A stretch of 32,000 nucleotides of DNA, taken from NCBI RefSeq assembly GCF_000092105.1, contig NC_014148.1, forward strand, positions 4,620,001 through 4,652,000. Reading direction: 5' to 3'. A program made the position numbers and the translations under genes. This document shows, piece by piece, positions 7,574-29,841 of the stretch (position 1 is its first letter; each line of letters begins with the position of its first letter). Under the pieces are notes generated by a model. That model was not told where the DNA came from. It worked only from the letters and a program-made list of their open reading frames with translations, and searched no databases. Source of the DNA: Planctopirus limnophila DSM 3776. GTDB taxonomy: Bacteria; Planctomycetota; Planctomycetia; Planctomycetales; Planctomycetaceae.

Positions 7574-7615
7574 AAAAAAAACAACCCCCAACGACTCTCA
7601 CAAGTCGTCAGGGGT
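7574..7615 (-). terminator. Intrinsic terminator on the minus strand (hairpin plus T8)
   Basis: The minus strand reads ACCCCTGACGACT-TGTGAG-AGTCGTTGGGGG-TTGTTTTTTTT. The ACGACT/AGTCGT and CCCC/GGGG stems are followed by a run of 8 T. No convincing minus-strand ORF lies upstream of it. Confidence 0.5.
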
Positions 7616-8166
7616 CATCCGTATTCCAGCCTCAATCACAGCCCATCCTGGACAGCCACGACCAACGAAGTCACCTTCGCCCGTCATGACTGCCAGCTAG
7701 CCCGATTTCTCAATCGTCTTATGTTCAAGCTTCATTCGCTGTCGATTTTTCCGAATGCAGCTCGCGACCATTTTCGTTCAGTGCATCACAAAGTCTGTTC
7801 GTCACTGACTCAGTTCCCTACTGACCGTAGCACTCGAATTCGAGGGGAAGTACCCACAAGCAGTACTCCCACCATTGACACCTTGAGGTGTCAATCGCAC
7901 AGGATGGGCTCTGATCGAGCCACGGGAGAAACTTCGGTCCGGAATCACAAGCGGGCAGATCCCACCTGCAAGGTGCACCCTGATGAAGCCTCTCTACCCA
8001 ATCCCACTCTGTTGCGCCACCTTTCGCGTAACTAACCAAAAGCGCAGGGAATCGACCGTCTACAATGGTTATACGAATCTGGAGAGCTGCACTCAAAATC
8101 ACCGTGACATCTTGCCGTTAAAAAACTGAACTTTTGCCATTTTTTCAGGATGATTTTTCGACACGC

Positions 8167-8196
8167 TTAGCGGTAATATCTCGTAAGAGATATAAT
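8167..8196 (+). promoter_or_regulatory. Candidate sigma70-like promoter for the 8243 gene
   Basis: A perfect TATAAT at 8191-8196 lies 47 nt upstream of the ATG. A weak -35 TTAGCG at 8167-8172 gives an 18-nt spacer. The surrounding sequence is extremely AT-rich. Confidence 0.3.
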
Positions 8197-8242
8197 TAAA
8201 ATAAGCGCAGTGTGACACGACAACAATCAAGATGGTTACGTC

Positions 8243-9820
8243 ATGCAAAAAAAAGTGGGCGATCAACGAATCGAAATCATAAATGATGACCGTGTGTACA
8301 CTTCTTCAGAGTTGATTGGTAAGCTCAACGCTGAAGGTTTTAGCACTCCAAATGCTCGCAAAATCCTCAGTCGCGAGTCACAAAAAAAGAGCCTTTGGCG
8401 TTCAGAAACGCTCAAATTACCGAGAGATGAACGACTATTTTCTCGATTGGGATTGGTTGGAACGCCATCCTTCTTCGCACAAATCGGAGAAAAACTAAGG
8501 TCAACACAACGGCATGGAATAGCGAGAAGTGTCGCAGCTCTTGGTACGCATAAGCTGCTTCATCGCATGGATCTGCTACGTCTCCTCGCTGTGACATCAT
8601 CAACGGATGCCGCCCTGTCAGGAAGTCGGCAAAGACTCTCATTTGAGGAGGAGTGCCGCTCGCTCGAAGAACTTGGAGCAAAAATCATTCAGCGTGGAAC
8701 AGCTTTAGAGTCAGTTGTGGCACCACAGGCTGTGCAAACCGGTGAAGACCTAGATTCTCTTGCAGTGATTGCCTTAAGCCGAATTCGAGTTGAAACACTT
8801 CTCGCAAAGATTTTAACTGAACGGTTTCGAAAGCAGAATCTCATATCATGGAACTGCATCGATATCGCGGACTTTGACAAGCCATACGTTGTTTTCAATG
8901 GGCAAGTTTTCACAGCATATGGGTTTTCCTATCTTGGACCTCTAAGGCGGTGGAAAGATGGAAACCGAACTCCTACTTCATGTCCAGTCGTTATAGACTG
9001 TTACCACGATATGTGCTCCCTACCTCAGGTTGAATCTTTGCTTCAAAGAATTCAACGAGCAGCCTATCGAGGCCGCAAACAGCAGCCCATCTTGGGCGTA
9101 ATTGCCGCACGCGACTTCGAAACGGAGGCGTGGAGTAAAGCTCGTCAAGAATCGTTAATGACTGTTAGCTTTCGCCAATTGTTCGGCGATGAAGCATTGA
9201 ATGTAATGATTCAGATTGAACAACTGCTTTGCGGAATATGCCAGTCCGATCCAAAAAACTCTCAAGATCAATATAATAAAGTGGCTACACTGATAGAAGA
9301 CTTAAAGGTGAATCCAATTGTAGCAGATTTACGAGCAATTGGTCTTGAATTAATATCTGCTTTGATTCTGCAATCAAATGGATTCACTTCACTAGAGCTC
9401 GGTCGAGTCGTTCCATGGGGTAGTACATCTCGCGATGTAGATGTTTTTGGGATTCGTGCGGATAATGAGTTGAGAATTGTGGAATGTAAAGCCTATCACC
9501 ATAAAAAATCTCTTCTTGACTCCGATGTAAAAAAGTTTTTTACGGAAACCGTACCAGCATTGAAGAAATGGCTGAAAGACAATTCTCGTCATTTTGAAAA
9601 ATGTATTGCTGAAATTTGGACGACAGGGCCTAAAGGCAAAAACGCAGAAAACACCATGAAGGAAATTAGAGTGCCTGCTGGTGACAATTGGACAATACGA
9701 AGAATGAGTGATATGCACGCAGAGATACCAAAAAATATACGAAGACGCAGTGTGGCGCTCTTAAAGGCCATTTCATTTCCAGAAACAGACCTGAACGACT
9801 TATGCAACGAAGAATGCTGA
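8243..9820 (+). CDS. Large hypothetical protein with a C-terminal PD-(D/E)xK (Mrr/restriction-endonuclease-like) nuclease motif; candidate stand-alone defence or restriction-like gene
   Basis: The 525-aa ORF sits in an AT-rich block. The C-terminal region reads ELISALILQSNGFTSLELGRVVPWGSTSRDVDVFGIRADNELRIVECKAY (nt 9434-9490), which contains D...E-x-K in the usual helix-strand context. I did not recognise the N-terminal ~390 aa. Confidence 0.8.
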   Translation: MQKKVGDQRIEIINDDRVYTSSELIGKLNAEGFSTPNARKILSRESQKKSLWRSETLKLPRDERLFSRLGLVGTPSFFAQIGEKLRSTQRHGIARSVAALGTHKLLHRMDLLRLLAVTSSTDAALSGSRQRLSFEEECRSLEELGAKIIQRGTALESVVAPQAVQTGEDLDSLAVIALSRIRVETLLAKILTERFRKQNLISWNCIDIADFDKPYVVFNGQVFTAYGFSYLGPLRRWKDGNRTPTSCPVVIDCYHDMCSLPQVESLLQRIQRAAYRGRKQQPILGVIAARDFETEAWSKARQESLMTVSFRQLFGDEALNVMIQIEQLLCGICQSDPKNSQDQYNKVATLIEDLKVNPIVADLRAIGLELISALILQSNGFTSLELGRVVPWGSTSRDVDVFGIRADNELRIVECKAYHHKKSLLDSDVKKFFTETVPALKKWLKDNSRHFEKCIAEIWTTGPKGKNAENTMKEIRVPAGDNWTIRRMSDMHAEIPKNIRRRSVALLKAISFPETDLNDLCNEEC

Positions 9821-9846
9821 GAATTCAAATAAAGCTGCTTCTTTAA

Positions 9847-9885
9847 TCCTCACCCGCGTCTTCGTTGGAGAGGGCACAGTGAGGG
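9847..9885 (-). repeat. Short repeat family R4 (reverse copy)
   Basis: The reverse complement ccctctccaacgaagacgcgggtgagga matches 19209-19238 (cccctctcccacaaagacgcgggcgagggt) at about 24 of 28 positions. It lies directly 3' of the 8243..9820 gene. Confidence 0.5.
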
Positions 9886-10026
9886 TCTTCCTCATCGATT
9901 TTCAACAACTACAATGGCCTCCGCCGGAGTGCCAATTGTCTGCTCCAGGCCAGAGATGAAAAGCGTCCTGCGATGAAGCGACTCGTGGATTGCACGCCCG
10001 ATACGTGCGAGCTCCGCTCATCCCAG

Positions 10027-21338: not shown

Positions 21339-21501
21339 GGGTGGCAGGGGTCAAACGTCCTCGTTTGCCCCCGGGTCATCTGACATTGGCACTTCATGGC
21401 GACGTTCATGGAGAGTCATGAAGAACATTGCGGATGCAATGTGTCCTGTGGTCCTCGAGTGACCTGGGGGCGAATGAAGACATCCGACCCCAGCCACCCG
21501 G
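21339..21501 (-). repeat. MITE-like element copy E (reverse orientation, 163 bp)
   Basis: 21339-21380 GGGTGGCAGGGGTCAAACGTCCTCGTTTGCCCCCGGGTCATC is the reverse complement of the right arm. 21459-21501 GTGACCTGGGGGCGAATGAAGACATCCGACCCCAGCCACCCGG is the reverse complement of the left arm. Confidence 0.85.
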
Positions 21502-21523
21502 CCTTTTTTGTGGGGAACATTTC

Positions 21524-22336
21524 ATGAATCAATTTGGTTGGCGCGATGATCTGGAAGAGCGTCTGCTGTTGTCGGCATCTTCTCAAGCTCCGCTGACGAG
21601 GTCATTCTCTGTCAGCGATGCTCCACAAGAAATCGATCCCCGCCCATGGCATCGCATTGAAATGCAGGGATCTTTGGGAAGCTGCCAGGGGCATGCCCTG
21701 TCGAGCGTGGGAGAAATGGCCTATCACCTCGCCAGTGGGCGCGTGACGCAGTTCTCACCTCTGTTTGCCTATTACGCCACTCAGCAGATCGATGGGCTTT
21801 TAGGACGTGATCAGGGGAGCACCATTCAAGGGGGTGTCCAATGTGCCCGGCAATATGGCTTCTGCCCGCTGGAGGTGTTCCCGAACCCCGTCCCCTTGCG
21901 CTACACCGGTGTGATTCCTCAAGAAGCCTGGCCCGCAGCGGCACCATTTCGCATCCGGTCGCACACTGTGTGCACCTCGTATGACGATGTCTGGTCATTT
22001 CTCGCAGCCGGGCAAGGAGGTGTGGTGGCTGGCCTGGGCTGGAACAGCAGCCTCACGCCACGTCAGGGGCGTATTGAAAGTTATCGCCCGGGCGGTGGCG
22101 GGCATGCCGTCGCATTTCTGGGATACAGCCGGCGGCGCGATGCCCAGCAACGACCTTATCTCTGGCTGGCCAACAGCTGGTCAGAGGAGTGGGGAGATGA
22201 CGGCTGGGCAGAGGTTGCTCCGCAGGCGGTGGAATCGATGCTGGCTGATCGCCGGACTGTCATGGTCGGTCTCTCGGATCTCAGTCTGCCGACACCAAGA
22301 CCCATTCCCTGGCGAGAAAAATCGATCTTTGAGTGA
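21524..22336 (+). CDS. Papain-family (C1) cysteine peptidase with no obvious signal peptide
   Basis: Contains QGSLGSCQGHAL (catalytic Cys context), GGGHAVAFLGY (catalytic His) and LANSWSEEWGDDGW (Asn-Ser-Trp). The ATG at 21524 is preferred because the longer track ORF begins inside the MITE copy. Confidence 0.85.
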   Translation: MNQFGWRDDLEERLLLSASSQAPLTRSFSVSDAPQEIDPRPWHRIEMQGSLGSCQGHALSSVGEMAYHLASGRVTQFSPLFAYYATQQIDGLLGRDQGSTIQGGVQCARQYGFCPLEVFPNPVPLRYTGVIPQEAWPAAAPFRIRSHTVCTSYDDVWSFLAAGQGGVVAGLGWNSSLTPRQGRIESYRPGGGGHAVAFLGYSRRRDAQQRPYLWLANSWSEEWGDDGWAEVAPQAVESMLADRRTVMVGLSDLSLPTPRPIPWREKSIFE

Positions 22337-22412
22337 GCCCCGCACCTGCTGAGCGGCTCGCGGATTTTATTGACATCCAGTTTCCACACACCCTTTGTTT
22401 CAGGGGAGAATC

Positions 22413-23315
22413 ATGTTCCGGAGCATCACCTTCTCGCTGATCTATCCTGCCGGGCTAATCATGTGGCTGGCCACTGGCCCGCAGGCAGGGGCCCAACCTC
22501 ATGTAATGGCTGAAGAAGCTCTTTCGCAGTCAACGAAAGCGGCATGGCCATCACTCTTTGCAGAGGCAGCAAGCCCCGCGAGTCCTGTGAATACAGCTCA
22601 GAATTCTCGTGCGTTGCAGTGGCTGGTGTTTTATGGCCCGGGGTGTGTCCCCTGCATGCGCGCTATTCACGATTTTCAGCCCTGGTTGAAGGCCAGTGGC
22701 TGGGAGGTGAGCGAAGTTCCCCAGGCTCATATCCGCTTGATCGACGCCAATCGCGAACAGTCGCTGGCACGACAGTTTCAGATCGAAGCTTGGCCCACCT
22801 TTGTGCTTATGCATGAGGGGAAAGTCCTCGAGCGGCACACATCGTATCCGGGGCGGCAATTCCTGGCAGACCGCTATCTGGCAGCCGCTGCTCGAGTTCG
22901 TGACCAGCGAAGCTTCACCAGCCATGAGCCAGTCAGTGCGATCTCGATGGGCACTTTGTCCAATACGTCTCGGGAAGTGGCCCTGCTGCTGGAATCGACC
23001 CGGCCTCTGCTCGAAGCGGGACTGATGTTCGAAGGCCGTCTCCTGCCAGCCAGCCAGAAGGCTTCAGGCAGCTTGCCAGCCAGTACCACCATTTCACTCA
23101 CCGAATCAGCAGCCATCCGGCTCTACTGGCCACTCGTGTTTCGCTTATCGAGACAACAAAACTCGCTCCATCTCGATTTCGAGAAGCCATATCCCCAGTT
23201 CCGGATGTCGAACATCTTTCCTGTCGAACAATCGATTGAAGGGCTCACAGCCACCACGCAATCTCTCACTATCGAGTTGCCCCGCATGATTGACCTCAAG
23301 TGGCAGCTCGATTAA
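22413..23315 (+). CDS. Secreted thioredoxin-fold protein (CVPC) with an uncharacterised C-terminal domain
   Basis: The signal-like N-terminus is MFRSITFSLIYPAGLIMWLATGPQAGA. WLVFYGPGCVPC provides the CxxC motif and EAWPTFVLMHEGKV provides a cis-Pro loop. GGGAGA lies upstream of the ATG at 22413. Confidence 0.75.
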   Translation: MFRSITFSLIYPAGLIMWLATGPQAGAQPHVMAEEALSQSTKAAWPSLFAEAASPASPVNTAQNSRALQWLVFYGPGCVPCMRAIHDFQPWLKASGWEVSEVPQAHIRLIDANREQSLARQFQIEAWPTFVLMHEGKVLERHTSYPGRQFLADRYLAAAARVRDQRSFTSHEPVSAISMGTLSNTSREVALLLESTRPLLEAGLMFEGRLLPASQKASGSLPASTTISLTESAAIRLYWPLVFRLSRQQNSLHLDFEKPYPQFRMSNIFPVEQSIEGLTATTQSLTIELPRMIDLKWQLD

Positions 23316-23402: not shown

Positions 23403-24293
23403 ATGCTGCTCAATATCTGCTACCACATCGCCCCTAAGGCACCCACCGTTCAGGCCTCGATGGTTTGCGATCACTTCGGCCTGACACTTGATGGCCAGCA
23501 GCAGGTGATTGCCCGCGATCTCGAACTCCCGGTCACTTCCGGAAACCTCATTGCCTTCGTCGGCCCCTCGGGCTCTGGCAAATCGTCACTCATGCGGGCC
23601 GTCGCTGCAGAGCTGAAGTCATCGGGCCAAGGAGATGTTCTGTGGCTTGATCATCTGCCGCAGGTTGCGTCACTCGTGGCCGACGCCCTGGCACTTCCAC
23701 CACTGGATGCCTTTCGACTTCTGGCCCAGTGCGGTCTGGCTGAGCCACAACTTCTTTTGCGAACACCTGATGAACTGAGCGACGGCCAGAGATTTCGCTT
23801 TCGCCTCGCACAAAGTGTGGCCGAGGCGCTTCGTCGCCAAAGTCAGCATTCATCACAGGGCACCTGGATCGCGGCCGATGAGTTCACTTCGCCACTCGAT
23901 CGCACGCTAGCCAAAGTGATGGCCCGCAACTGGCATTCCCTGTTGCGCCAACATCGCCTCGGTGGCCTCGTGGCCACCACACACACCGATATTCTCGACG
24001 ACCTCGAGCCCGACCTCATCGTCACCTGCAGTCACGACGCGCCGCCTCAGCTTTCCGGCCTGGCCGCCTCGCCGACATTCTCGTCCGCAACATCGTCCGC
24101 ACAGCGGACCCTACGGGAGGCCGACGCCCCCACGCCCGCTGTAAAAAAAAAGAAATCAGCTTTTTCCACGAACTGGCCCTCACCACCGGAACGAAACGCG
24201 ACTGGGCGTATTTTGCTCGGTGGCATTACCGCTCGCACTCCGTCGGCATTGTCCGCTTCGTCACCATCCTCTGGCATCTCCACGAACCCATAG
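23403..24293 (+). CDS. ABC-type ATPase (no transmembrane domain); the zero-frame product ends in a low-quality tail after an A9 tract
   Basis: Contains Walker A GPSGSGKSS, signature LSDGQRFR, Walker B WIAADEFTSPLD and H-loop ATTHTD. After ...PTPAVKKKK the frame-0 sequence (SAFSTNWPSPPERNATGRILLGG...) no longer looks protein-like. The start is ATG at 23403 or GTG at 23340. Confidence 0.85.
   Translation: MLLNICYHIAPKAPTVQASMVCDHFGLTLDGQQQVIARDLELPVTSGNLIAFVGPSGSGKSSLMRAVAAELKSSGQGDVLWLDHLPQVASLVADALALPPLDAFRLLAQCGLAEPQLLLRTPDELSDGQRFRFRLAQSVAEALRRQSQHSSQGTWIAADEFTSPLDRTLAKVMARNWHSLLRQHRLGGLVATTHTDILDDLEPDLIVTCSHDAPPQLSGLAASPTFSSATSSAQRTLREADAPTPAVKKKKSAFSTNWPSPPERNATGRILLGGITARTPSALSASSPSSGISTNP
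24143..24152 (+). promoter_or_regulatory. A9 tract containing a dnaX-type A_AAA_AAG -1 slippery heptamer, in phase with the ATPase frame
   Basis: The frame-0 codons are GTA AAA AAA AAG AAA. The heptamer A AAA AAG occupies 24146-24152. A -1 shift here enters the GNAT-like frame exactly at EISFFHELALTTG... Confidence 0.5.
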
Positions 24294-24814
24294 GCATCTG
24301 TGTCTTCACCAGTGCCCCACTCTCGTTGCGTTTGCGCAACCAGTACTTTGGTCTTTCCGGCCGCTGGACAAGAACCGGCCTCCAGGCCATCGATCGACAG
24401 TTCTGCCGATTGGCCCGCGTGGTGATTCATCCCACGTATCGAGGAGCCGGGCTGGCGGCTCCTTTTGTTCGCGCCAGTTGCCAGCATGTTCCCTGGCCGT
24501 GGATCGAATCGCTCGCCGAGATGGGGCAGTTCCACCCCTTCTTCGAGAAAGCCGGGTTCCTCAATCTCGGGGAATGTCAGTCCGCAACCCATTCCCCAAA
24601 GGCACCTGCCGCAGACCATCGTGAGCAGCACTCCCAAATCTACGGCACACGTTCACTTTCGGGCCGCAAGCGATTGATCACTCATGAAACGTTCCGCAAA
24701 AGCCAACATGCTCACCCCGTCTACTTCCTCTTCGATAATCGAAACTCACCCGCCTACCTTGCCAGTTGCCAGAGAAGAATCGCCAACAGTCCCCCATCCC
24801 ATGCTCTGGAATGA
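24152..24814 (+). CDS. GNAT-like acetyltransferase domain ORF lacking its own start codon (reachable from the ATPase frame by a -1 shift or by A10)
   Basis: Hand translation of the -1 frame gives EISFFHELALTTGTKRDWAYFARWHYRSHSVGIVRFVTILWHLHEPIGICVFTSAPLSLRLRNQYFGL...LARVVIHPTYRGAGLAAPFVR...FFEKAGF, which includes a GNAT motif-A-like R-x-x-G-x-G/A. This frame is open from 23882 but has no ATG, GTG or TTG before the TTG at 24326. Confidence 0.65.
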   Translation, partial: EISFFHELALTTGTKRDWAYFARWHYRSHSVGIVRFVTILWHLHEPIGICVFTSAPLSLRLRNQYFGLSGRWTRTGLQAIDRQFCRLARVVIHPTYRGAGLAAPFVRASCQHVPWPWIESLAEMGQFHPFFEKAGFLNLGECQSATHSPKAPAADHREQHSQIYGTRSLSGRKRLITHETFRKSQHAHPVYFLFDNRNSPAYLASCQRRIANSPPSHALE

Positions 24815-25244
24815 ATCACTCGAAACCACACCACAGCTTCTGAAACCCGCTCTGCTCACCAGCGATCAACAGGCGGAGTTTCTCGAACTTCTCACCAAAG
24901 GAGCCAGTCCCTTCGGTGCCTGTGAGAAGCTGGAATGTTCGCAACTGCAACTGGCTCTCACGCTCGCGCAAGATGCCGAATTTTCCGAGAAGCTCAAGGC
25001 GATCAAGGAGATTCAAGGCCAGAACGTGGTGGCCATGCTCTATCAGGCGGCCCTCAAGGGAAATGTCACAGCTCAGCAATTCTGGCTGCGCCATCAGCCA
25101 CCAGCCGACTGGCGACTGGCTGCCAGCCCACTGGAAGGACAAGACCTCAGCGATGCCGATCTCTTTGACCGCTGCCGAGAGGCAGGACTTGATTTCCCGC
25201 CTGAACTCACTGCGCGCCTGGCAACTCCTGATCTCGAGGCATAA
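24801..25244 (+). CDS. Putative terminase small subunit / HTH DNA-binding protein
   Basis: 147 aa from the ATG at 24801, overlapping the end of the GNAT frame by 14 nt. It contains LTSDQQAEFLELLTKGAS...ACEKL (HTH-like) and AALKGNVTAQQFWLRH, a motif I associate with phage small terminases. It lies directly upstream of terL. Confidence 0.6.
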   Translation: MLWNESLETTPQLLKPALLTSDQQAEFLELLTKGASPFGACEKLECSQLQLALTLAQDAEFSEKLKAIKEIQGQNVVAMLYQAALKGNVTAQQFWLRHQPPADWRLAASPLEGQDLSDADLFDRCREAGLDFPPELTARLATPDLEA

Positions 25245-26751
25245 TCCTCACAGCTTCCGGCATGTGGTCCGTCTTTCTGCCGCCGATCGAACGCGGCAGG
25301 CCACACTCGAATCGTGGCAACGGGCCGATTTCGCAGCCCTCGACCCCGCCTGGCGCAAATTGGCTTTCGGTTCTCGTCCTTCGTTATCACAGGCCGACGC
25401 GACCACTTCGAACGCTCCCCACGTTCTTCGAAGGGCCTATCTCGAGCGACCGCGCGGCCACTCGAAAACCACCGATATCGCTCTCTCCTGCGCCTGGATA
25501 CTCGCCTTCGCGCAGGAACCCGTCACTGGCATTGCAGCGGCTGCTGATCGTGAACAGGCCCAGTTGCTCCTGCAGGCCATTGCGAGGCTCGTGCGTCTCA
25601 ATCCTCACCTGCTGGGCCATCTGCAGGTGCAGCAGGAACGGGTGATCCACACGCACACACGCAGCCGGCTCGATGTCATTTCTTCCGATGTCGCCAGCTC
25701 CTGGGGCCTGCTCCCCGATTTCGTCATCTGTGACGAACTCTGCCACTGGACAAAGCCTGATCTGTGGCATTCGCTCGTTTCTGCATCGGCGAAAAAGCCG
25801 CACACCCTGCTCGCTGTGATGAGTAATGCTGGTGTGGGCCGTACCTGGCAATGGCAGGTTCGCGAGGCTGCCCGCACTTCTCCCGAGTGGTACTTCTCAT
25901 CGCTCCATGGCCCTCAGGCGAGCTGGATTACCCCAGAAACACTGGCCGAGCAGCAGCGTTTGCTCCCCGCGACCGTCTTTGCCCGCTTGTGGCTCAATCA
26001 GTGGCAACAGGCGGAAGGCGACTTCGTCACTCTCGACGAAGCCCGGGCCTGTATCGATCCCTCACTCGCGAGGAAAGAGCATGGTTCACCAGGCATCCAT
26101 TATGTGGCGGCCATCGATTATGCCGAGAAGCACGACTGGACAGTCGCTGTCATTCTGCATGCCGAGGGAGATCGCCTGATTGTCGATCGCATGGATGTCG
26201 CTATTCCACAGCCCGGGCGGCCCACACCTGTCGCGTGGGTCGATAACTGGCTCACCTGGGCAGCGGGTGCCTTTGATGATATTGAGTTCGTGCTCGATGA
26301 ATATCAGTTATTGTCCATCATCCAGCATCGCTCGGCAGAACTCGCACTCGAACGCTTTTCGTTCGCTGGTGGAGCCGGGAATCACGCTCTGGCGATGTTA
26401 TTGCGGCAACTGATTATCGAACGCCGGGTGCTCTGGTACCCCGGTTGCGGCTCACCGCAATTCGATCAACTCGATTTTTCCCACGGGCCCACTCCTGCAG
26501 AAGCGCTGATCAATCCCGAGACGACGACGCAGCCGGGAGATGAGAACGATCTGGCTCAGGAACTGGCGACACTTTTGCTGCGACAGTCGCCTTCGGGCCG
26601 ATTGCGTTTTGACCATCGAAACGAAGCCGGCTTCCACGACGACCGCGCCTTCGCTCTCGCCGCTGCCTGTTTAAAACTGACAAAAACACCCATCTCTCCC
26701 TCCTACTTCGACCTCACCCCACCCACAACCGACGGCACATTCGCCTGGTAA
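25153..26751 (+). CDS. Phage terminase large subunit (Terminase_1/COG4626-like)
   Basis: Contains ERPRGHSKTTD (Walker A-like), DFVICDELCHW (Walker B), MSNAG, and the C-terminal RNase-H-like nuclease motifs AAIDYAEKHDWT and FHDDRAFALAAA. The start is uncertain: ATG at 25153 overlaps terS by 92 nt, and GTG at 25264 is the alternative. Confidence 0.9.
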   Translation: MPISLTAAERQDLISRLNSLRAWQLLISRHNPHSFRHVVRLSAADRTRQATLESWQRADFAALDPAWRKLAFGSRPSLSQADATTSNAPHVLRRAYLERPRGHSKTTDIALSCAWILAFAQEPVTGIAAAADREQAQLLLQAIARLVRLNPHLLGHLQVQQERVIHTHTRSRLDVISSDVASSWGLLPDFVICDELCHWTKPDLWHSLVSASAKKPHTLLAVMSNAGVGRTWQWQVREAARTSPEWYFSSLHGPQASWITPETLAEQQRLLPATVFARLWLNQWQQAEGDFVTLDEARACIDPSLARKEHGSPGIHYVAAIDYAEKHDWTVAVILHAEGDRLIVDRMDVAIPQPGRPTPVAWVDNWLTWAAGAFDDIEFVLDEYQLLSIIQHRSAELALERFSFAGGAGNHALAMLLRQLIIERRVLWYPGCGSPQFDQLDFSHGPTPAEALINPETTTQPGDENDLAQELATLLLRQSPSGRLRFDHRNEAGFHDDRAFALAAACLKLTKTPISPSYFDLTPPTTDGTFAW

Positions 26752-27089: not shown

Positions 27090-27776
27090 ATGAGCCATCT
27101 CCGAGGTTGGTTTGGCGAAATCTGCACCCGGCTGGGCCTGTGGCTCAGGCTCCCTTCGCGAACCTACCGCCAGTTCCACAACGTCGTCGTCCCCACCTCC
27201 AACGGCACGACACAGATCGATCACCTGATCGTTTCAACTTACGGCCTCTTCGTCATTGAAACCAAGACCATGAATGGCTGGATCTATGGCAACGAGCAAG
27301 ACAGCCAGTGGACGCAGAAGTTCTATAAAAAATCGTTCCGCTTCCAGAACCCGCTCAAGCAGAACTATCGGCATCTCTGCTGCCTCGAAGAGCACCTGGG
27401 CCTGCCCCGAACCTGCATGCACTCGATTATCTTCTTCATCGGCGACGCGGAACTGAAGACCCCCATGCCCAGCAACGTCCTCACTCACGGCCTGTCGAGC
27501 TATATCCGCTGGCATCGCGAGCCATTATTATCTGAAGACGAAGTGGAGCGGATCATCGCCGCCATCCAGGAACTGAAACGCGATCGCACTCTCAACCACG
27601 CCACCCACATGGCCTCACTCGCAGACCGCCACTCCTCAACCACCCGCTGCCCCAAATGCGGCAACGATCTCATCGAGCGGCAATCCCAACGCGGCCCGAA
27701 TGCCGGCAACACCTTCCTCGGCTGCAAATCCTACCCCCGCTGCCGCTTCACCAGACAACTCTCCCAAGAGCCATAA
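27090..27776 (+). CDS. NERD-domain nuclease fused to a topoisomerase-type C4 zinc ribbon
   Basis: Contains QIDHLIVSTYGLFVIETKTMNGWIYGNEQDSQWTQ (NERD signature) and the C-terminal CPKCGNDLIERQSQRGPNAGNTFLGCKSYPRCR (zf-C4_Topoisom pattern). Confidence 0.9.
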   Translation: MSHLRGWFGEICTRLGLWLRLPSRTYRQFHNVVVPTSNGTTQIDHLIVSTYGLFVIETKTMNGWIYGNEQDSQWTQKFYKKSFRFQNPLKQNYRHLCCLEEHLGLPRTCMHSIIFFIGDAELKTPMPSNVLTHGLSSYIRWHREPLLSEDEVERIIAAIQELKRDRTLNHATHMASLADRHSSTTRCPKCGNDLIERQSQRGPNAGNTFLGCKSYPRCRFTRQLSQEP

Positions 27777-28044: not shown

Positions 28045-28251
28045 CTACTCATCGTGAGTAGCTTGATTGCGTGCACAAGGGTGACAAACAACCTCATGTC
28101 TTGGTTTGTCGAGAATGATATCTTCCGGTGCCAATGGTGCCACAGAAGATGGTTGCAAACTTTGCAAAAGGATGTGTCTTTTCCAAATTGGCCATTCTCT
28201 GACCACTGCCGCAGCACGTTCTAGCTTCTCAAGGAATTCGGCATCAGTCAC
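28045..28251 (-). CDS. Small hypothetical protein (68-71 aa) translationally coupled to the deaminase gene
   Basis: The GTG at 28251 has GGGAG 8 nt upstream and overlaps the deaminase stop (GTGACTGA); an alternative GTG is at 28260. The sequence reads (MEKV)TDAEFLEKLERAAAVVREWPIWKRHILLQS... GC content is similarly reduced to that of the deaminase gene. Confidence 0.45.
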   Translation of the reverse strand: MTDAEFLEKLERAAAVVREWPIWKRHILLQSLQPSSVAPLAPEDIILDKPRHEVVCHPCARNQATHDE

Positions 28252-29755
28252 TTTTTCCACTCCCAGTTGCGGCGTTAATTGACTGAAGGAAAAGTGTAGC
28301 CGCCTCCGTTTCGGAATCCAAATAAGAACGCGGCGCCATCTGTATTCTAGAACGAGAATCTTGAATAGACCAGTTTATCTTCTGTCCACTTTCATCATTT
28401 TTGCGCACTAGTGGGTAGCTCGACCCCAGTTGCATGGAGAATAAGTCAAAAAAACGTCGAGGGCCGATTCCGACAAACGGCTCGAATCTCACTCGTCCGT
28501 TCACTTGCTCACTTTTTGTTCCGGGAGGTGCAATTGAGTCGTCGTGAAACTCCAAAGCCTTGCTTTTTGGATATGGTTCAACGTAAACGACTCTCTCAAT
28601 GCCTGCCGCTACAATATGTTTCGCACAATTGTGACAGGGAAACGTAGTGCAGTAAAGTGTTGCTCCAACAGTTGAAACACAATTCCTGGCGCAGCTAAGA
28701 ATTGCTTCCATTTCCGCATGAACAACTCGACCGAATTCAGTCAGATCTCGAATCGGACTACCCTCAAGGCAAGCTGCCACCATCTTAGTATCAACATTAC
28801 ACTTCTGGCCGATTGAATTAGCAATACTGTTAATCATTCTTACCTGTTCAGCTCGATTAGAATCGCCATCCTTCCTCATGTAGTCTCTACCATCTTCCAA
28901 ATCTCGAATACACGGGCCATCATGGCGATCTGGCCAGTACAGACCTCCGCCTGCCTTGGGGCAGTCATTAGCTCCAGTCGAAAGTATCTGCTTATCCTTA
29001 GCGACAACGGCTCCTACCTGCCTCGAAAGATCTGCGGAGCGAAGCGCTGACGAAAACGCCATAAACATTGCATGCTCGTCGAATGTTGGCGTCTGGAAAG
29101 GATTGCCGAACCAGAGATCGACAATACGGTCGATGTCACACGCAAGCTGCGATTGATTAGAAGAGAGATCTATAAAAAAATCGGCCAAATGAAATGTTTT
29201 CCGCAACCTCTGTCCATGCGGATCTTCACTTTCGTCAGCATCACGATCAAGCAGTCGATCAACCTGTTCGGTTGACAACCCCTTACGAGTGAGCTCTTGA
29301 CGCCGATCCTGCTCGCTCTGATGAACACCAATTAGCAGAAAACCGGATGGATAGGTCACCCTTAAAAATTCGACCTCCTCTGGCCGCTTTAGGGAACTGA
29401 TTATAAATGCGGCTTTCTGTTTTGGCTGAATTGTCTCGTTGCTACTCAATCGCCGTGAATATATGTTCGCGACAACACCTTGTGCCAACACTGAGTCACC
29501 GTGCTCCGCCCTTGACTTATTCCCGGCATCCATCATCTTGTTGATTCGGTCGTATTCCGATTTGTACGGCGTATTGTCACCTGACATACGGCTCATCACA
29601 TCGCTAGAAACGCGAATAACTTCAACTGTATAGGAGGCTCTTTCCAGTGACTTTTGTAGATCCCGGATGAATCGATCACTATCTGTCCCTACAGCGTGCA
29701 AAAGTCCAATCATCAACTCAGGATGAAAAGATACAGATGAGTCTACTTTTTCCAT
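28244..29755 (-). CDS. Kinase-like N-terminal domain fused to a dCMP/CMP-type zinc deaminase (AvcD / anti-phage dCTP-deaminase type)
   Basis: The C-terminal half has HAEMEAI and PCHNCAKHIVAAGIERVVYVEPYPKS (the CDA zinc motifs H-A-E and P-C-x-x-C). The N-terminus has PELMIGLLHAVGTDSDRF...YTVEVIRVS and HLADFFID, resembling the nucleotide-kinase-like module of defence deaminases. The ATG at 29755 is preferred over the GTG at 29764. Confidence 0.85.
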   Translation of the reverse strand: MEKVDSSVSFHPELMIGLLHAVGTDSDRFIRDLQKSLERASYTVEVIRVSSDVMSRMSGDNTPYKSEYDRINKMMDAGNKSRAEHGDSVLAQGVVANIYSRRLSSNETIQPKQKAAFIISSLKRPEEVEFLRVTYPSGFLLIGVHQSEQDRRQELTRKGLSTEQVDRLLDRDADESEDPHGQRLRKTFHLADFFIDLSSNQSQLACDIDRIVDLWFGNPFQTPTFDEHAMFMAFSSALRSADLSRQVGAVVAKDKQILSTGANDCPKAGGGLYWPDRHDGPCIRDLEDGRDYMRKDGDSNRAEQVRMINSIANSIGQKCNVDTKMVAACLEGSPIRDLTEFGRVVHAEMEAILSCARNCVSTVGATLYCTTFPCHNCAKHIVAAGIERVVYVEPYPKSKALEFHDDSIAPPGTKSEQVNGRVRFEPFVGIGPRRFFDLFSMQLGSSYPLVRKNDESGQKINWSIQDSRSRIQMAPRSYLDSETEAATLFLQSINAATGSGKSD

Positions 29756-29841
29756 GATCGCCACTTACTAAGATTACCAATTCGACTGAGCTGCTATTGT
29801 GTGCGATTTGAAGGGGTAAGAGCAAGTTGTAAATGTCCAAC

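What the first reader, a model, noticed from the sequence alone, without database searches (positions are those of the whole stretch)
23403..26751. Tightly overlapping ATPase/GNAT-terS-terL operon with no portal, capsid or tail genes nearby: an orphan or domesticated DNA-packaging-like module
The four reading frames overlap one another. ATPase and GNAT join at the A9 tract, GNAT and terS overlap by 14 nt, and terS and terL overlap by up to 92 nt, all of which implies co-translation. The terL ORF looks intact, with Walker A-like RGHSKTT, Walker B DFVICDE, SNAG, and a complete RNase-H-like nuclease half containing AAIDYAEKHDW and FHDDRAF. Even so, nothing resembling a portal, protease, capsid, tail, integrase or lysis gene occurs anywhere in this window. 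I know of no described role for an ABC-type ATPase-acetyltransferase fused directly upstream of a terminase pair. The possibilities are a decayed prophage end, a satellite or PICI-like hijacker module, or a domesticated terminase-nuclease system (for example a defence or GTA-like function) in which the ATPase-GNAT is a sensor or modifier.
Basis: partly seen in the sequence, partly recalled or inferred. Interest (0 to 1): 0.65.

Follow-up and report, generated by a model that had tools for sequence, protein, structure and literature searches.

The report
Domesticated terminase module with slippery frameshift
These genes are the DNA-packaging unit of an old virus-derived particle gene set kept by most Planctomycetaceae, here separated from the capsid genes, and the first gene needs a conserved run of nine A's to shift its reading frame.

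Summary
They are (1) an ABC-ATPase fused to a GNAT acyltransferase and split at an A9 tract, (2) a small-terminase-like gene, and (3) an intact large terminase.

The block is not a decaying prophage end. In 82 species-level Planctomycetaceae loci, ATPase/GNAT-terS-TerL is kept as a unit (66/68). TerL is never interrupted (78/78). dN/dS is about 0.1.

A portal follows TerL in only 13/62 loci. The matching portal-capsid-tail cluster is common elsewhere (capsid 75-99% identical, 398 aa). It usually lacks an adjacent terminase (17/20) and has no integrase, lysis or replication genes. That is the signature of a domesticated, gene-transfer-agent-like element split over several loci. I could not check whether this genome keeps the capsid cluster.

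The A9 tract is a conserved recoding site. 45/66 species have A9 with GNAT in the -1 frame, and 7 have A10 in frame. The GNAT frame often opens only inside the tract. The site would give an ATPase-only product and an ATPase-GNAT fusion.

The GNAT domain's nearest folds are nucleobase acylators (TmcA, Mom, NAT10). The same ParB-ABC-GNAT-terminase order occurs in real phages. I found no description of the Planctomycetaceae element or its recoding site in the papers I could search.

The parts
23403..24293 (+). ABC-type ATPase domain ORF in the zero frame. It would give the short product of about 296 aa, ending 140 nt after the A tract. It carries Walker A GPSGSGKS, signature LSDGQR, Walker B WIAADE and H-loop TTH.
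   Evidence: The AlphaFold2 model has pLDDT 87, and Foldseek finds ABC transporter nucleotide-binding domains at E about 1e-8.
24143..24151 (+). A9 slippery tract (GT AAAAAAAAA G). It contains A_AAA_AAG in phase with the ATPase frame. This is the proposed recoding site: a -1 ribosomal frameshift, or insertion of one A by RNA polymerase.
   Evidence: It is conserved as A9 with GNAT in the -1 frame in 45/66 species loci and is A10 in frame in 7. It is the only homopolymer of 9 or more in the window. It lies at the end of the disordered linker of the model, residues 221-243.
24149..24814 (+). GNAT-like acyltransferase domain in the -1 frame. It is translated only as the C-terminal half of a roughly 470-aa ATPase-GNAT fusion. 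Motif A is HPTYRGAGLA.
   Evidence: phrog_886 matches residues 248-387. dN/dS is 0.05-0.13.
24801..25244 (+). Small-terminase-like gene of 147 aa. It has an N-terminal helix-turn-helix (KGASPFGACEKL) and the conserved segment NVVAMLYQAALKGNVTAQQFWL. It overlaps the GNAT stop by 14 nt.
   Evidence: PHROG terS families 309, 4044, 4102 and 24579 are hit by the orthologues. There is no Pfam or PDB match.
25153..26751 (+). Large terminase (TerL) of 532 aa with an ATPase half and an RNase-H-like nuclease half. It is intact. Its start overlaps terS by up to 92 nt.

Best explanation
Positions 23403-26751 hold the DNA-packaging module of a phage-derived head-tail particle gene set that was domesticated early in the family Planctomycetaceae. 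The set has been inherited with the chromosome since then, in the manner of a gene transfer agent or 'viriform'.

The full set, as seen in relatives, has about 20 genes and 18-20 kb:
- a small HTH protein
- a ParB_N protein
- the ABC-ATPase/GNAT
- terS and TerL
- portal
- a protease- or scaffold-like protein
- a cement-like protein
- a 398-aa HK97-type capsid protein
- neck proteins
- a short tape-measure-like protein
- distal tail proteins
- two glycosyltransferases

The set has no integrase, repressor, replication or lysis genes next to it. In most species it is broken at two recurrent joints, TerL|portal and portal|g282 (the protease- or scaffold-like gene that begins the capsid-tail part). 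The window shows the first kind of break. In this lineage the module has also lost the HTH and ParB genes from the locus.

Inferred working:
- TerS binds DNA.
- TerL cuts the DNA and pumps it into procapsids that are encoded elsewhere.
- The ABC-ATPase/GNAT is a packaging-associated accessory enzyme made in two forms from one gene.
- Normal decoding of the A9 tract gives the ATPase alone.
- A -1 shift in the tract gives the ATPase-GNAT fusion. The shift is most likely RNA-polymerase slippage adding one A, possibly ribosomal slippage on A_AAA_AAG.
- Because the GNAT fold is closest to TmcA/NAT10 and Mu Mom, the fusion may be an ATP-driven acyltransferase acting on nucleic acid.

Shown versus inferred:
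- Shown: gene identities, conservation as a unit, purifying selection, split architecture in relatives, and conservation and necessity of the tract.
- Inferred: particle production, packaging of host DNA, the substrate of the GNAT, the mechanism of the shift, and the presence of capsid genes elsewhere in this genome.
For: Distribution:
- TerL relatives occur in 181 GTDB species genomes. All 80 loci listed are Planctomycetota, mostly Planctomycetaceae.
- There are more than 655 protein clusters.

Conservation as a unit:
- ABC/GNAT is upstream in 66/68 loci.
- terS is present in 66/68.
- ParB is present in 45/60.
- TerL is uninterrupted in 78/78 complete copies.
- A portal lies within 3 kb in only 13/62.
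- A capsid gene lies within 7 kb in only 5/49.

Complete linked clusters are seen in L001, L015, L034, L055, L084 and L170.

Split pieces that complement each other:
- Symmachiella has g282-capsid-tail with neither portal nor terminase (L090).
- L091 has portal-capsid-tail with no terminase.
- Alienimonas has the module plus portal, then host genes (L119).
- L041 has the capsid part inverted beside the module.
- In a capsid-centred metagenome survey, 20 loci had at least 6 kb upstream. TerL was upstream in 3 and a portal in 8.

The capsid is about as common as TerL. It forms 512 clusters, 75-99% identical, almost all 398 aa.

Evidence for chromosomal inheritance:
- A ThiF-like gene sits divergently upstream of ParB in 23 species. 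Its divergence is similar to that of TerL. Mantel r is 0.65, p = 2e-4.
- Within Planctopirus the flanks are identical.
- The module's dS matches that of flanking host genes.

Selection: dN/dS is 0.07-0.13 for terL, 0.10-0.17 for the ATPase, 0.05-0.13 for GNAT and 0.06-0.27 for terS.

No phage lifestyle genes were found:
- The window holds housekeeping genes.
- Relatives' flanks hold host genes.
- In IMG/VR (2.9 M contigs) a TerL scan and a capsid scan together found three contigs carrying the element, and in the stretches fetched two of them show only the cluster itself.

Content resembles a small siphovirus-like particle. It has a Neck1/tail-completion protein, a 232-aa tape-measure-like protein and a cement-like protein.

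Recoding:
- A9 with GNAT in the -1 frame is found in 45/66 loci. A10 in frame is found in 7, and A8 in 4.
- The upstream linker varies in sequence and length while the tract is fixed.
- A TAA in the GNAT frame overlaps the start of the tract in 24 of the 45 A9/-1 loci.
- In 35/47 loci the first canonical start in the GNAT frame lies after the invariant FARWHY motif.
- 65 A/T runs of 9 or more occur in 1.36 Mb of loci, and by my count about 59 of them are this site.
- A9 tracts are established sites of transcriptional slippage, for example Thermus thermophilus dnaX (PMC1088944; PMC3711429).

GNAT fold neighbours: TmcA 1.2e-5, Mu Mom 1.3e-5, then NAT10 and Kre33. TmcA also matches the two-domain model.
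Against: - No experiment shows particles, packaging or gene transfer in any Planctomycete. I found no paper on this.
- For the window's own genome I could not test whether portal, capsid and tail genes exist elsewhere.
- Planctopirus has also lost ParB and the small HTH gene from this locus.
- P. hydrillae carries an in-frame stop inside GNAT. The module could therefore be on its way out, or re-used, in this genus.
- Direct evidence of retained split pieces in one genome is limited to L041. Otherwise it rests on complementary fragments and equal prevalence.
- The ThiF/TerL distance correlation is driven by close pairs (Spearman 0.15).
- No frameshift-stimulating RNA structure was found, and the shift mechanism is not resolved.
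- A9/A10 differences between close relatives also fit heritable phase variation.
- The Foldseek scores for the GNAT domain are modest (TM 0.4-0.5), and GNAT substrates cannot be read from the fold.
Confidence: 0.65

Rival explanations
1. This is an exapted terminase. In Planctopirus, and perhaps in other 'orphan' species, the ATPase/GNAT-terS-TerL trio works without any capsid. It might act as a DNA-cutting or DNA-translocating system in defence, DNA uptake or export, or repair, with the ATPase/GNAT as sensor or modifier.
For: - The module is intact and under purifying selection although no structural gene lies within 23 kb upstream or 5 kb downstream here, or within 10 kb downstream in P. hydrillae.
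- ParB and the HTH gene are missing from the locus in this genus.
- The module sits next to a NERD gene and an anti-phage dCTP deaminase.
- The ATPase weakly resembles defence ABC ATPases such as mad3 and mad8.
Against: - No PADLOC model matches TerL or terS.
- The NERD and deaminase neighbours are not conserved outside the Planctopirus lineage.
- Across the family the capsid clusters are as common as TerL and are usually unlinked from it. Missing local linkage is therefore the norm and says little.
- TerL in Planctopirus is barely more divergent than in species with linked clusters: 52-58% against 55-64%.
Confidence: 0.17
2. This is an ordinary prophage remnant, the left end of a decaying temperate phage. 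Its genes are still intact only because the decay is recent.
For: - The genes are phage-type terminase genes.
- The same order is found in real phages.
- The cluster is called viral in IMG/VR contigs.
Against: - The same truncated arrangement with an intact TerL occurs in 49/62 species loci.
- dN/dS is about 0.1 and dS equals that of the host flanks.
- The chromosomal position is conserved within Planctopirus, and ThiF synteny is conserved across genera.
- No integrase, repressor, lysis or replication genes lie nearby.
Confidence: 0.05
3. The A9 tract is not programmed recoding. It is either a sequencing or mutational frameshift that leaves a pseudogene here, or a replication-slippage phase-variation switch between ON (A10) and OFF (A9).
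For: - The closest relatives have A10 in frame while the window has A9.
- Tract lengths of 8, 9 and 10 all occur.
- Poly-A tracts are hypermutable (PMC1088944).
- Some lineages have a hard-wired fusion with no tract: L001, L013, L081 and L119.
Against: - A9 with GNAT out of frame is the majority state, found in 45/66 independent assemblies that include complete genomes.
- The GNAT domain is nonetheless under strong purifying selection in those species.
- It cannot be initiated independently.
- An OFF state as the norm would not preserve it.
- Transcriptional slippage on A9/A10 yields both products whatever the genomic length, which explains why both lengths are tolerated.
Confidence: 0.12
4. 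This is a phage satellite or PICI-like hijacker module that carries its own terminase to redirect a helper phage's capsids.
For:
Against: - No integrase, replication or interference genes are present.
- The position is fixed among housekeeping genes (Rho, RibH, NusB, AhcY).
- Conservation is vertical and family-wide.
- In relatives the module is contiguous with its own portal and capsid.
Confidence: 0.02

Closest known systems
RcGTA-type gene transfer agents of Alphaproteobacteria, and other GTAs or 'viriforms' such as BaGTA, VSH-1, Dd1 and VTA (my own knowledge of the literature; Lang et al. 2017 is cited)
   Same: - It is a small head-tail gene set of about 15-20 kb that starts with terS-TerL-portal.
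- It has a short tape-measure protein.
- It has no integrase, replication or lysogeny genes.
- It is conserved across a whole bacterial clade under purifying selection.
- It is chromosomally fixed.
- Its parts are encoded at separate loci.
   Different: - It is in a different phylum and is an independent origin.
- TerL is of the PF03354 type, and no sequence relative of TerL has a solved structure.
- It has extra conserved 5' genes (small HTH, ParB_N, ABC-ATPase/GNAT with a recoding site) and 3' glycosyltransferases.
- The main cluster itself is usually split between TerL, portal and capsid.
- No particles or gene transfer have been shown.
ParB-like nuclease - ABC ATPase - (GNAT-like, phrog_886) - terminase - portal modules of SSU5-like phage-plasmids, Nickievirus (Pseudomonas phages hairong and nickie), Rhizobium RHEph10-like phages and Gordonia Sourvirus phages
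   Same: - The order of ParB-type gene, ABC ATPase (32-37% identical over about 200 aa) and GNAT-like part is the same, directly upstream of the large terminase and portal.
   Different: - These are autonomous phages of 60-115 kb.
- The ATPase and GNAT-like parts are separate genes in SSU5 and hairong.
- No A9 tract is present in Gordonia gene 2.
- The records annotate these genes only as 'ABC transporter', and no paper found assigns them a function.
Programmed frame change on poly-A. Examples are Thermus thermophilus dnaX (A9, transcriptional slippage), E. coli dnaX and IS3/IS911 (A_AAA_AAG, -1 ribosomal frameshift), and IS elements with A8-A9 (PMC1088944; PMC3711429; PMC5009743)
   Same: - A run of nine A's sits at a domain boundary.
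- One gene gives a short and a long product.
- The tract is conserved while the flanks vary.
- Tract length variants of 8 to 10 occur among relatives.
   Different: - The gene family is different (ABC-ATPase/GNAT).
- Here the shifted frame adds a whole 220-aa enzyme domain rather than truncating the protein.
- No stimulatory Shine-Dalgarno sequence or hairpin was found.
- Neither product has been observed experimentally.
TmcA/NAT10 (P-loop ATPase plus GNAT, N4-acetylation of cytidine in RNA) and phage Mu Mom (GNAT that acylates adenine in dsDNA using Gly-tRNA; PMC13219725, PMC7261163)
   Same: - They are the best Foldseek matches of the GNAT domain: 2zpa, 8bv8, 9aym and 5jpq_i.
- TmcA also matches the two-domain model.
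- An ATPase is coupled to a GNAT.
- Mom is a late phage function that modifies the DNA to be packaged.
   Different: - The ATPase here is an ABC-type nucleotide-binding domain, not a helicase-like domain.
- Sequence identity is 11-15%.
- There is no tRNA-binding domain and no Mom HTH insertion.
- Substrate and cofactor are unknown.

Membership tests
Phage large terminase (TerL; Pfam PF03354 TerL_ATPase, PHROG 9) | HMM match above the curated threshold | tested here: met
   PF03354 scores 40.0 bits against a cut-off of 23.7. phrog_9 scores 9e-30.
Phage large terminase (TerL; Pfam PF03354 TerL_ATPase, PHROG 9) | ATPase motifs (Walker A, Walker B with catalytic Glu, coupling motif) and acidic residues of the RNase-H-like nuclease | tested here: met
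   RPRGHSKT, DFVICDE, NAG, IDYAEKHD, LDEYQ and HDDR are all present, in columns invariant across 30 homologues.
Phage large terminase (TerL; Pfam PF03354 TerL_ATPase, PHROG 9) | Works with a portal-containing procapsid encoded by the same element | tested here: inconclusive
   Portal and capsid follow TerL in 13/62 and 5/49 relatives and lie elsewhere in others.
Small terminase (terS) | Small protein encoded immediately upstream of TerL, with an N-terminal HTH and similarity to terS families | tested here: met
   The position and the overlap with TerL are conserved. PHROG terS families are hit: 309 by 8/20 orthologues, 4044 by 7/20, and 4102 and 24579 by a few. There is no Pfam or PDB match, so membership is at the remote-homology level.
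ABC-type ATPase fused to a predicted acetyltransferase domain (the name JGI gives homologues; COG2401 from memory) | ABC nucleotide-binding domain (Walker A, LSGGQ-like signature, Walker B, H-loop) followed by a GNAT domain with the R/Q-x-x-G-x-G/A motif | tested here: met
   The motifs are present in the sequence. Homologues carry that name. The AlphaFold2 model has pLDDT 87 with both domains. Foldseek finds ABC nucleotide-binding domains and GNATs. R97, G98 and G100 are invariant.
Programmed frame change (transcriptional slippage or -1 ribosomal frameshift) | A conserved slippery sequence lies exactly at the junction of two frames, and both frames are conserved at the protein level | tested here: met
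   A9 with GNAT in the -1 frame is found in 45/66 species. The flanking linker is variable. Both domains are under purifying selection.
Programmed frame change (transcriptional slippage or -1 ribosomal frameshift) | The downstream frame cannot be expressed by independent initiation | tested here: met
   A TAA closes the GNAT frame at the start of the tract in 24 of the 45 A9/-1 loci. In 35/47 loci the first start codon lies after the invariant FARWHY motif. In the window the first start is 61 codons in.
Programmed frame change (transcriptional slippage or -1 ribosomal frameshift) | A stimulatory element, either a downstream structure or an upstream SD. This is needed only for efficient ribosomal frameshifting. 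| tested here: not met
   RNAalifold finds no conserved structure next to the tract and no covariation. There is no Rfam hit. This favours RNA-polymerase slippage over ribosomal frameshifting but does not exclude either.
Programmed frame change (transcriptional slippage or -1 ribosomal frameshift) | Both protein products, or heterogeneous transcripts, are observed | not testable with these tools
   This needs RNA-seq or proteomics.
Gene transfer agent / viriform | A phage-like head-tail gene set lacking replication, lysogeny and integration functions, and too small to be a phage | tested here: met
   In relatives the set is about 18-20 kb with about 20 genes and host genes at both ends. This was not tested for the window's own genome.
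Gene transfer agent / viriform | Clade-wide, chromosomally inherited and under purifying selection | tested here: met
   The element is found in 181 species genomes. ThiF synteny holds in 23 species. dN/dS is about 0.1. TerL is never disrupted. No formal tree reconciliation was done.
Gene transfer agent / viriform | Particles package host DNA fragments and deliver them to recipient cells | not testable with these tools
   No experimental report was found.
Functional or recently decayed prophage | Integrase and att sites, a lysogeny switch, replication and lysis modules contiguous with the structural genes | tested here: not met
   The window's other genes are housekeeping or defence genes. Relatives' flanks hold host genes.
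Known anti-phage defence system (PADLOC-DB) | HMM matches to the components of a described system | tested here: not met
   Only generic ABC-ATPase similarity was found for the ATPase (mad3 at 6e-12, over about 30 residues). TerL and terS have no match.

The most novel reading that the evidence does not exclude
Planctomycetaceae carry their own independently domesticated gene transfer agent, encoded in pieces around the chromosome. Its packaging module includes an enzyme class not yet known in packaging: an ABC-ATPase-driven GNAT, related in fold to TmcA, NAT10 and Mom, that chemically marks the nucleic acid being packaged. The dose of this enzyme would be set by programmed slippage on a conserved A9 tract. 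The same ParB-ABC-GNAT unit in SSU5-like and actinobacteriophages would then be an unrecognised DNA-modification or packaging-initiation system.
Probability: 0.2. Interest if true: 0.9.

Novelty: new variant of a known kind. Interest (0 to 1): 0.72.

Why it matters
Gene transfer agents are known from only a handful of lineages. A family-wide candidate in Planctomycetota, a phylum for which I found no report of a gene transfer agent or any other phage-derived particle, would add an independent case of virus domestication. P. limnophila is genetically tractable (my recollection, not checked here), so the idea could be tested there.

The split architecture also gives a natural experiment. TerL stays under selection while it is separated from portal and capsid, which bears on how such elements are regulated in trans.

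The A9 site is a clean, comparatively validated new example of recoding. It joins an ATPase to an enzyme domain.

The ParB - ABC-ATPase - GNAT unit next to terminases is also present in phage-plasmids of enterobacteria and in actinobacteriophages. No function has been assigned to it there. A role in DNA modification or packaging initiation would matter beyond this phylum.

Tried and rejected
- Defence-system reading. PADLOC gave no system match for TerL or terS. The NERD and dCTP-deaminase neighbours are lineage-specific.
- Frameshift-stimulating RNA. RNAalifold on 32 orthologous junctions found only a weak hairpin about 55 nt downstream, inside conserved coding sequence, with no covariation. 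Rfam found nothing.
- Operon signals. The promoter and terminator scan was at chance level.
- Solved relatives of TerL and terS by sequence. None were found.
- Literature. I found nothing on a Planctomycete GTA, on COG2401 or on the ParB-ABC-terminase unit beyond genome annotations.
- Capsid genes of the window's own genome. This was not possible. The homologue lists show only the top 120 cluster representatives, mostly unnamed. IMG/VR holds no Planctopirus provirus with this capsid.
- Same-contig test of a split, using equal contig lengths (P0178 and P0280). This turned out to be a linked cluster.
- Extra tail-fibre-like genes beside the cluster in one IMG genome (L120). They are not shared by any other locus, so I do not count them as part of the element.
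- My first naive ORF clustering merged antisense shadow ORFs with the ThiF family. I replaced it with tblastn-based mapping.

Full report
**1. What is in the window**

- The ATPase ORF runs from ATG 23403 to a stop at 24293.
- From the A9 tract at 24143-24151, a second frame (-1 relative to the ATPase) is open to 24814. It encodes a conserved domain.
- The terS-like ORF (24801-25244) overlaps that stop by 14 nt.
- TerL (ATG 25153-26751) overlaps terS by 92 nt.

Family assignments:
- Pfam gives ABC_tran at the N-terminus, and TerL_ATPase at 40 bits against a cut-off of 23.7.
- PHROGs gives terminase large subunit at 9e-30 and terminase small subunit at 1.6e-7.
- PHROGs also gives two phage 'ABC transporter' families, one for the ATPase half (phrog_293) and one for the second domain (phrog_886).
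- The second domain is GNAT-like. All 20 orthologues tested hit Acetyltransf_7/10/1 weakly. A profile hits the N-acetyltransferase 3fb3 at 2e-4 over motif A. R-G-x-G is invariant.

The rest of the window is chromosome backbone: a holA-like gene, a BamB-like gene, an AMP-binding enzyme, CoaE, Rho, RibH, NusB, PGM and AhcY. There is also a NERD-zinc-ribbon gene and an anti-phage dCTP deaminase. No cluster protein from relatives has a tblastn match elsewhere in the window.

**2. ATPase and GNAT are one gene with a conserved recoding site**

The closest relatives (96% TerL identity) have A10 instead of A9 and encode a single 492-aa ATPase-GNAT protein. I expected a sequencing error in the window, but the comparative data say otherwise.
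- Among 66 non-duplicate species-level loci that hold both domains, 45 have A9 with GNAT in the -1 frame.
- Seven have A10 in frame, four have A8, and only a few lack a tract.
- The sequence and length of the linker upstream of the tract vary freely while the tract is fixed.
- In 24 of the 45 A9/-1 loci a TAA in the GNAT frame overlaps the first A's, so that frame opens only inside the tract.
- In 35 of 47 loci the first canonical start codon in the GNAT frame lies downstream of the invariant DWPYFARWHY segment.
- The GNAT domain is under purifying selection, with dN/dS 0.05-0.13.
- The tract is the only homopolymer of 9 or more in the window. By my count about 59 of the 65 A/T runs of 9 or more in 1.36 Mb of related loci are this site.
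- In the AlphaFold2 model (pLDDT 87, pTM 0.83) the tract sits at the end of the disordered interdomain linker, residues 221-243.

This is the comparative signature of programmed recoding. The zero frame gives an ATPase-only protein, and a -1 shift gives the fusion.

In the window the tract reads GT-A AAA AAA AAG, so the classic A_AAA_AAG heptamer is in phase. In 32 of the 45 A9/-1 loci the phase differs. No stimulatory structure is conserved.

Runs of nine A's are established sites of RNA-polymerase slippage, as in Thermus thermophilus dnaX (PMC1088944; PMC3711429). I therefore favour transcriptional slippage and cannot exclude ribosomal frameshifting. Heritable A9/A10 phase variation remains a minor alternative.

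**3. The block is conserved as a unit, and 'orphan' is the normal state**

TerL has more than 655 homologous clusters. One is at 96% identity, one at 72%, and the rest at about 50-56%. A scan of one genome per GTDB species found 181 relatives. All 80 loci listed are Planctomycetota, mostly Planctomycetaceae, one locus per assembly.

Mapping all cluster proteins onto 82 non-duplicate loci gave these counts:
- ABC/GNAT upstream in 66/68.
- terS-like in 66/68.
- A ParB_N gene in 45/60.
- A small HTH-like ORF before ParB in about 47 loci.
- TerL uninterrupted in all 78 copies not cut by a contig end.
- A portal within 3 kb in only 13/62.
- A capsid gene within 7 kb in only 5/49.

Within Planctopirus the flanks are the same: a papain-like peptidase and a thioredoxin-like gene upstream, and NERD downstream. 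dS of the module (0.07-0.23) is like that of the flanks (0.16-0.48). dN/dS is 0.07-0.13 for terL, 0.10-0.17 for the ATPase and 0.06-0.27 for terS. A decaying prophage end is therefore excluded.

**4. What the module belongs to**

Where the cluster is complete, the order is:
- small HTH, ParB, ABC/GNAT, terS, TerL
- portal (Phage_portal_2), g124, g282
- g160 (cement-like)
- a 398-aa capsid protein (Phage_capsid_4)
- about ten small proteins, including a Neck1/tail-completion protein
- a 232-aa tape-measure-like protein
- two larger distal proteins
- two glycosyltransferases

This is seen in L001, L015, L034, L055, L084, L113 and L170. The whole set is about 18-20 kb, and host genes lie at both ends.

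The capsid is strikingly conserved. It forms 512 clusters, 75-99% identical, nearly all exactly 398 aa. It is thus about as common in the databases as TerL.

Capsid loci are mostly unlinked from TerL:
- In Symmachiella macrocystis the cluster starts at g282, directly after a host dehydrogenase gene.
- In L091 it starts at the portal.
- In Alienimonas californiensis the module plus portal is followed by host genes.
- In L041 the capsid part lies inverted beyond the ThiF gene, next to the module.
- In a capsid-centred survey of metagenome contigs, 20 loci had at least 6 kb upstream. TerL was upstream in 3 and a portal in 8.

The fragments complement each other at two recurrent joints, TerL|portal and portal|g282.

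A ThiF-like gene lies divergently upstream of ParB in 23 species and in Alienimonas, at 55-64% identity. That is the same divergence as TerL. Mantel r is 0.65, p = 2e-4, although the correlation is driven by close pairs.

In IMG/VR a TerL scan and a capsid scan together found three contigs carrying the element, and in the stretches fetched two of them show only the cluster itself. More distant TerL relatives at 36-49% identity lack the ABC/GNAT.

Taken together:
- the set is small and has no lifestyle genes;
- it is present across the clade;
- its chromosomal position is fixed;
- it is under purifying selection;
- it is dispersed over several loci.

From my own knowledge of the field, these are the criteria used to recognise gene transfer agents. 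I found no paper describing such an element in Planctomycetes.

**5. The ATPase/GNAT**

Homologues are named by JGI 'ABC-type ATPase with predicted acetyltransferase domain'. The fusion is therefore a known but uncharacterised architecture. Stand-alone copies exist in unrelated contexts.

In bona fide phages the same unit sits in front of the terminase:
- Pseudomonas phage hairong and Salmonella phage SSU5 have two ParB-like genes, an ABC ATPase, a small ORF and a GNAT-like ORF. In hairong a large terminase and a portal follow.
- Gordonia phage BiggityBass has ParB-like gene 1, ABC-like gene 2, terminase gene 4 and portal gene 7.

The N-domain model matches ABC transporter nucleotide-binding domains such as MalK, ArtP and HrtA.

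The GNAT domain modelled alone (pLDDT 88) matches best the nucleobase-acylating GNATs. These are TmcA (1.2e-5), phage Mu Mom (1.3e-5), NAT10 and Kre33, ahead of polyamine and other small-molecule acetyltransferases.
- TmcA and NAT10 are ATPase-GNAT enzymes.
- Mom acylates adenine in double-stranded DNA late in infection (PMC13219725).

This makes an ATP-dependent nucleic-acid acyltransferase a reasonable hypothesis. The scores are modest, and substrate cannot be read from a GNAT fold.

**6. What remains open for this window**

The cluster look-up shows masked members on a 5,423,075-bp contig, next to P. ephydatiae and P. hydrillae proteins. The window is therefore from a complete Planctopirus chromosome. 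The size matches P. limnophila DSM 3776 as I remember it.

I could not search that genome for the capsid cluster. Three observations leave some room for the view that the module has been re-used or is being lost in this genus:
- Planctopirus lacks ParB and the HTH gene at this locus.
- P. hydrillae has a stop codon inside GNAT.
- The module borders two defence-type genes.

Against that view, TerL is no more divergent here than elsewhere and is under strong constraint.

**7. Verdict**

This is the packaging module of a Planctomycetaceae-wide GTA-like element that is typically split from its structural genes, and it carries a conserved A9 recoding site in an ABC-ATPase/GNAT gene.

My confidence by claim:
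- Packaging module of a domesticated element: about 0.65.
- Programmed recoding: about 0.85.
- Actual gene-transfer function: about 0.35-0.4.
- A nucleic-acid substrate for the GNAT: about 0.3.

Noticed in passing
window 28244-29764 (-) and 27090-27776 (+): There is an anti-phage dCTP deaminase (PADLOC dCTPase 9e-168; dCMP_cyt_deam_1) in a low-GC stretch (GC 0.47 against about 0.57). Beside it is a NERD plus Topo-I zinc-ribbon gene. Together they form a small defence islet directly downstream of TerL. NERD is also near TerL in the 72% relative (L003) but not in other genera.
   Followed up: partly
L008 about 9340-9350 (Planctopirus hydrillae JC280): The ATPase-GNAT gene has A10 and is in frame, but it carries an in-frame stop inside the GNAT domain (CQHVP*PWIES, where the window has W). 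This is either a recent inactivation or a sequencing error.
   Followed up: no
L001 7230-7535, L119 6902-7219 and about 45 other loci; absent from the window: A conserved protein of about 100 aa with a weak HTH_23 / sigma-region-4-like segment lies immediately upstream of ParB. A ThiF-like gene lies divergently upstream of it in 23 species. The small protein is a candidate regulator of the element. L041 has a second, diverged copy 3 kb downstream of TerL.
   Followed up: partly
L090 20169-21197, L091 19033-20667, L117 15469-17201, and L121, L131, L141, L153, L157, L161-L163: A GT2 glycosyltransferase follows the last tail-like gene in at least 11 loci, and a second (GT1-type) glycosyltransferase follows it in the three loci where I looked. 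They appear to be part of the conserved set. This could mean glycosylated particles, or a fixed host neighbour.
   Followed up: partly
L120 12923-20945 (-), IMG genome 2887510965: A convergent block sits next to the cluster. It holds a 1475-aa tail-fibre-like protein and ORFs of 210, 237, 315 and 474 aa. None of these is found in any other fetched locus. It is probably why IMG/VR called a 56-kb provirus here.
   Followed up: partly
window 8001-10000: This is a low-GC island (GC 0.44-0.45 against about 0.55). It holds a 525-aa ORF (8243-9820) with no Pfam match, and A8 runs at 7574 and 8247. It is possibly horizontally acquired.
   Followed up: no
window 21428-23315: A papain-family (Peptidase_C1-like) gene and a thioredoxin-like gene lie directly upstream of the module. 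They are syntenic in all Planctopirus relatives and replace the HTH-ParB genes found in other genera.
   Followed up: no
L001 9532-10131, and many other loci: The terS-like ORF overlaps the start of TerL by 80-130 nt in many species (92 nt in the window). This is an unusually long and conserved overlap, which may reflect translational coupling or an alternative TerL start.
   Followed up: no
L118 8001-9200 (JGI contig Ga0436431_00032): A stand-alone ABC-ATPase/GNAT homologue (42% identity, in frame, no A tract) lies next to cytochrome and Act-complex genes with no terminase nearby. The family therefore also exists outside packaging modules.
   Followed up: no
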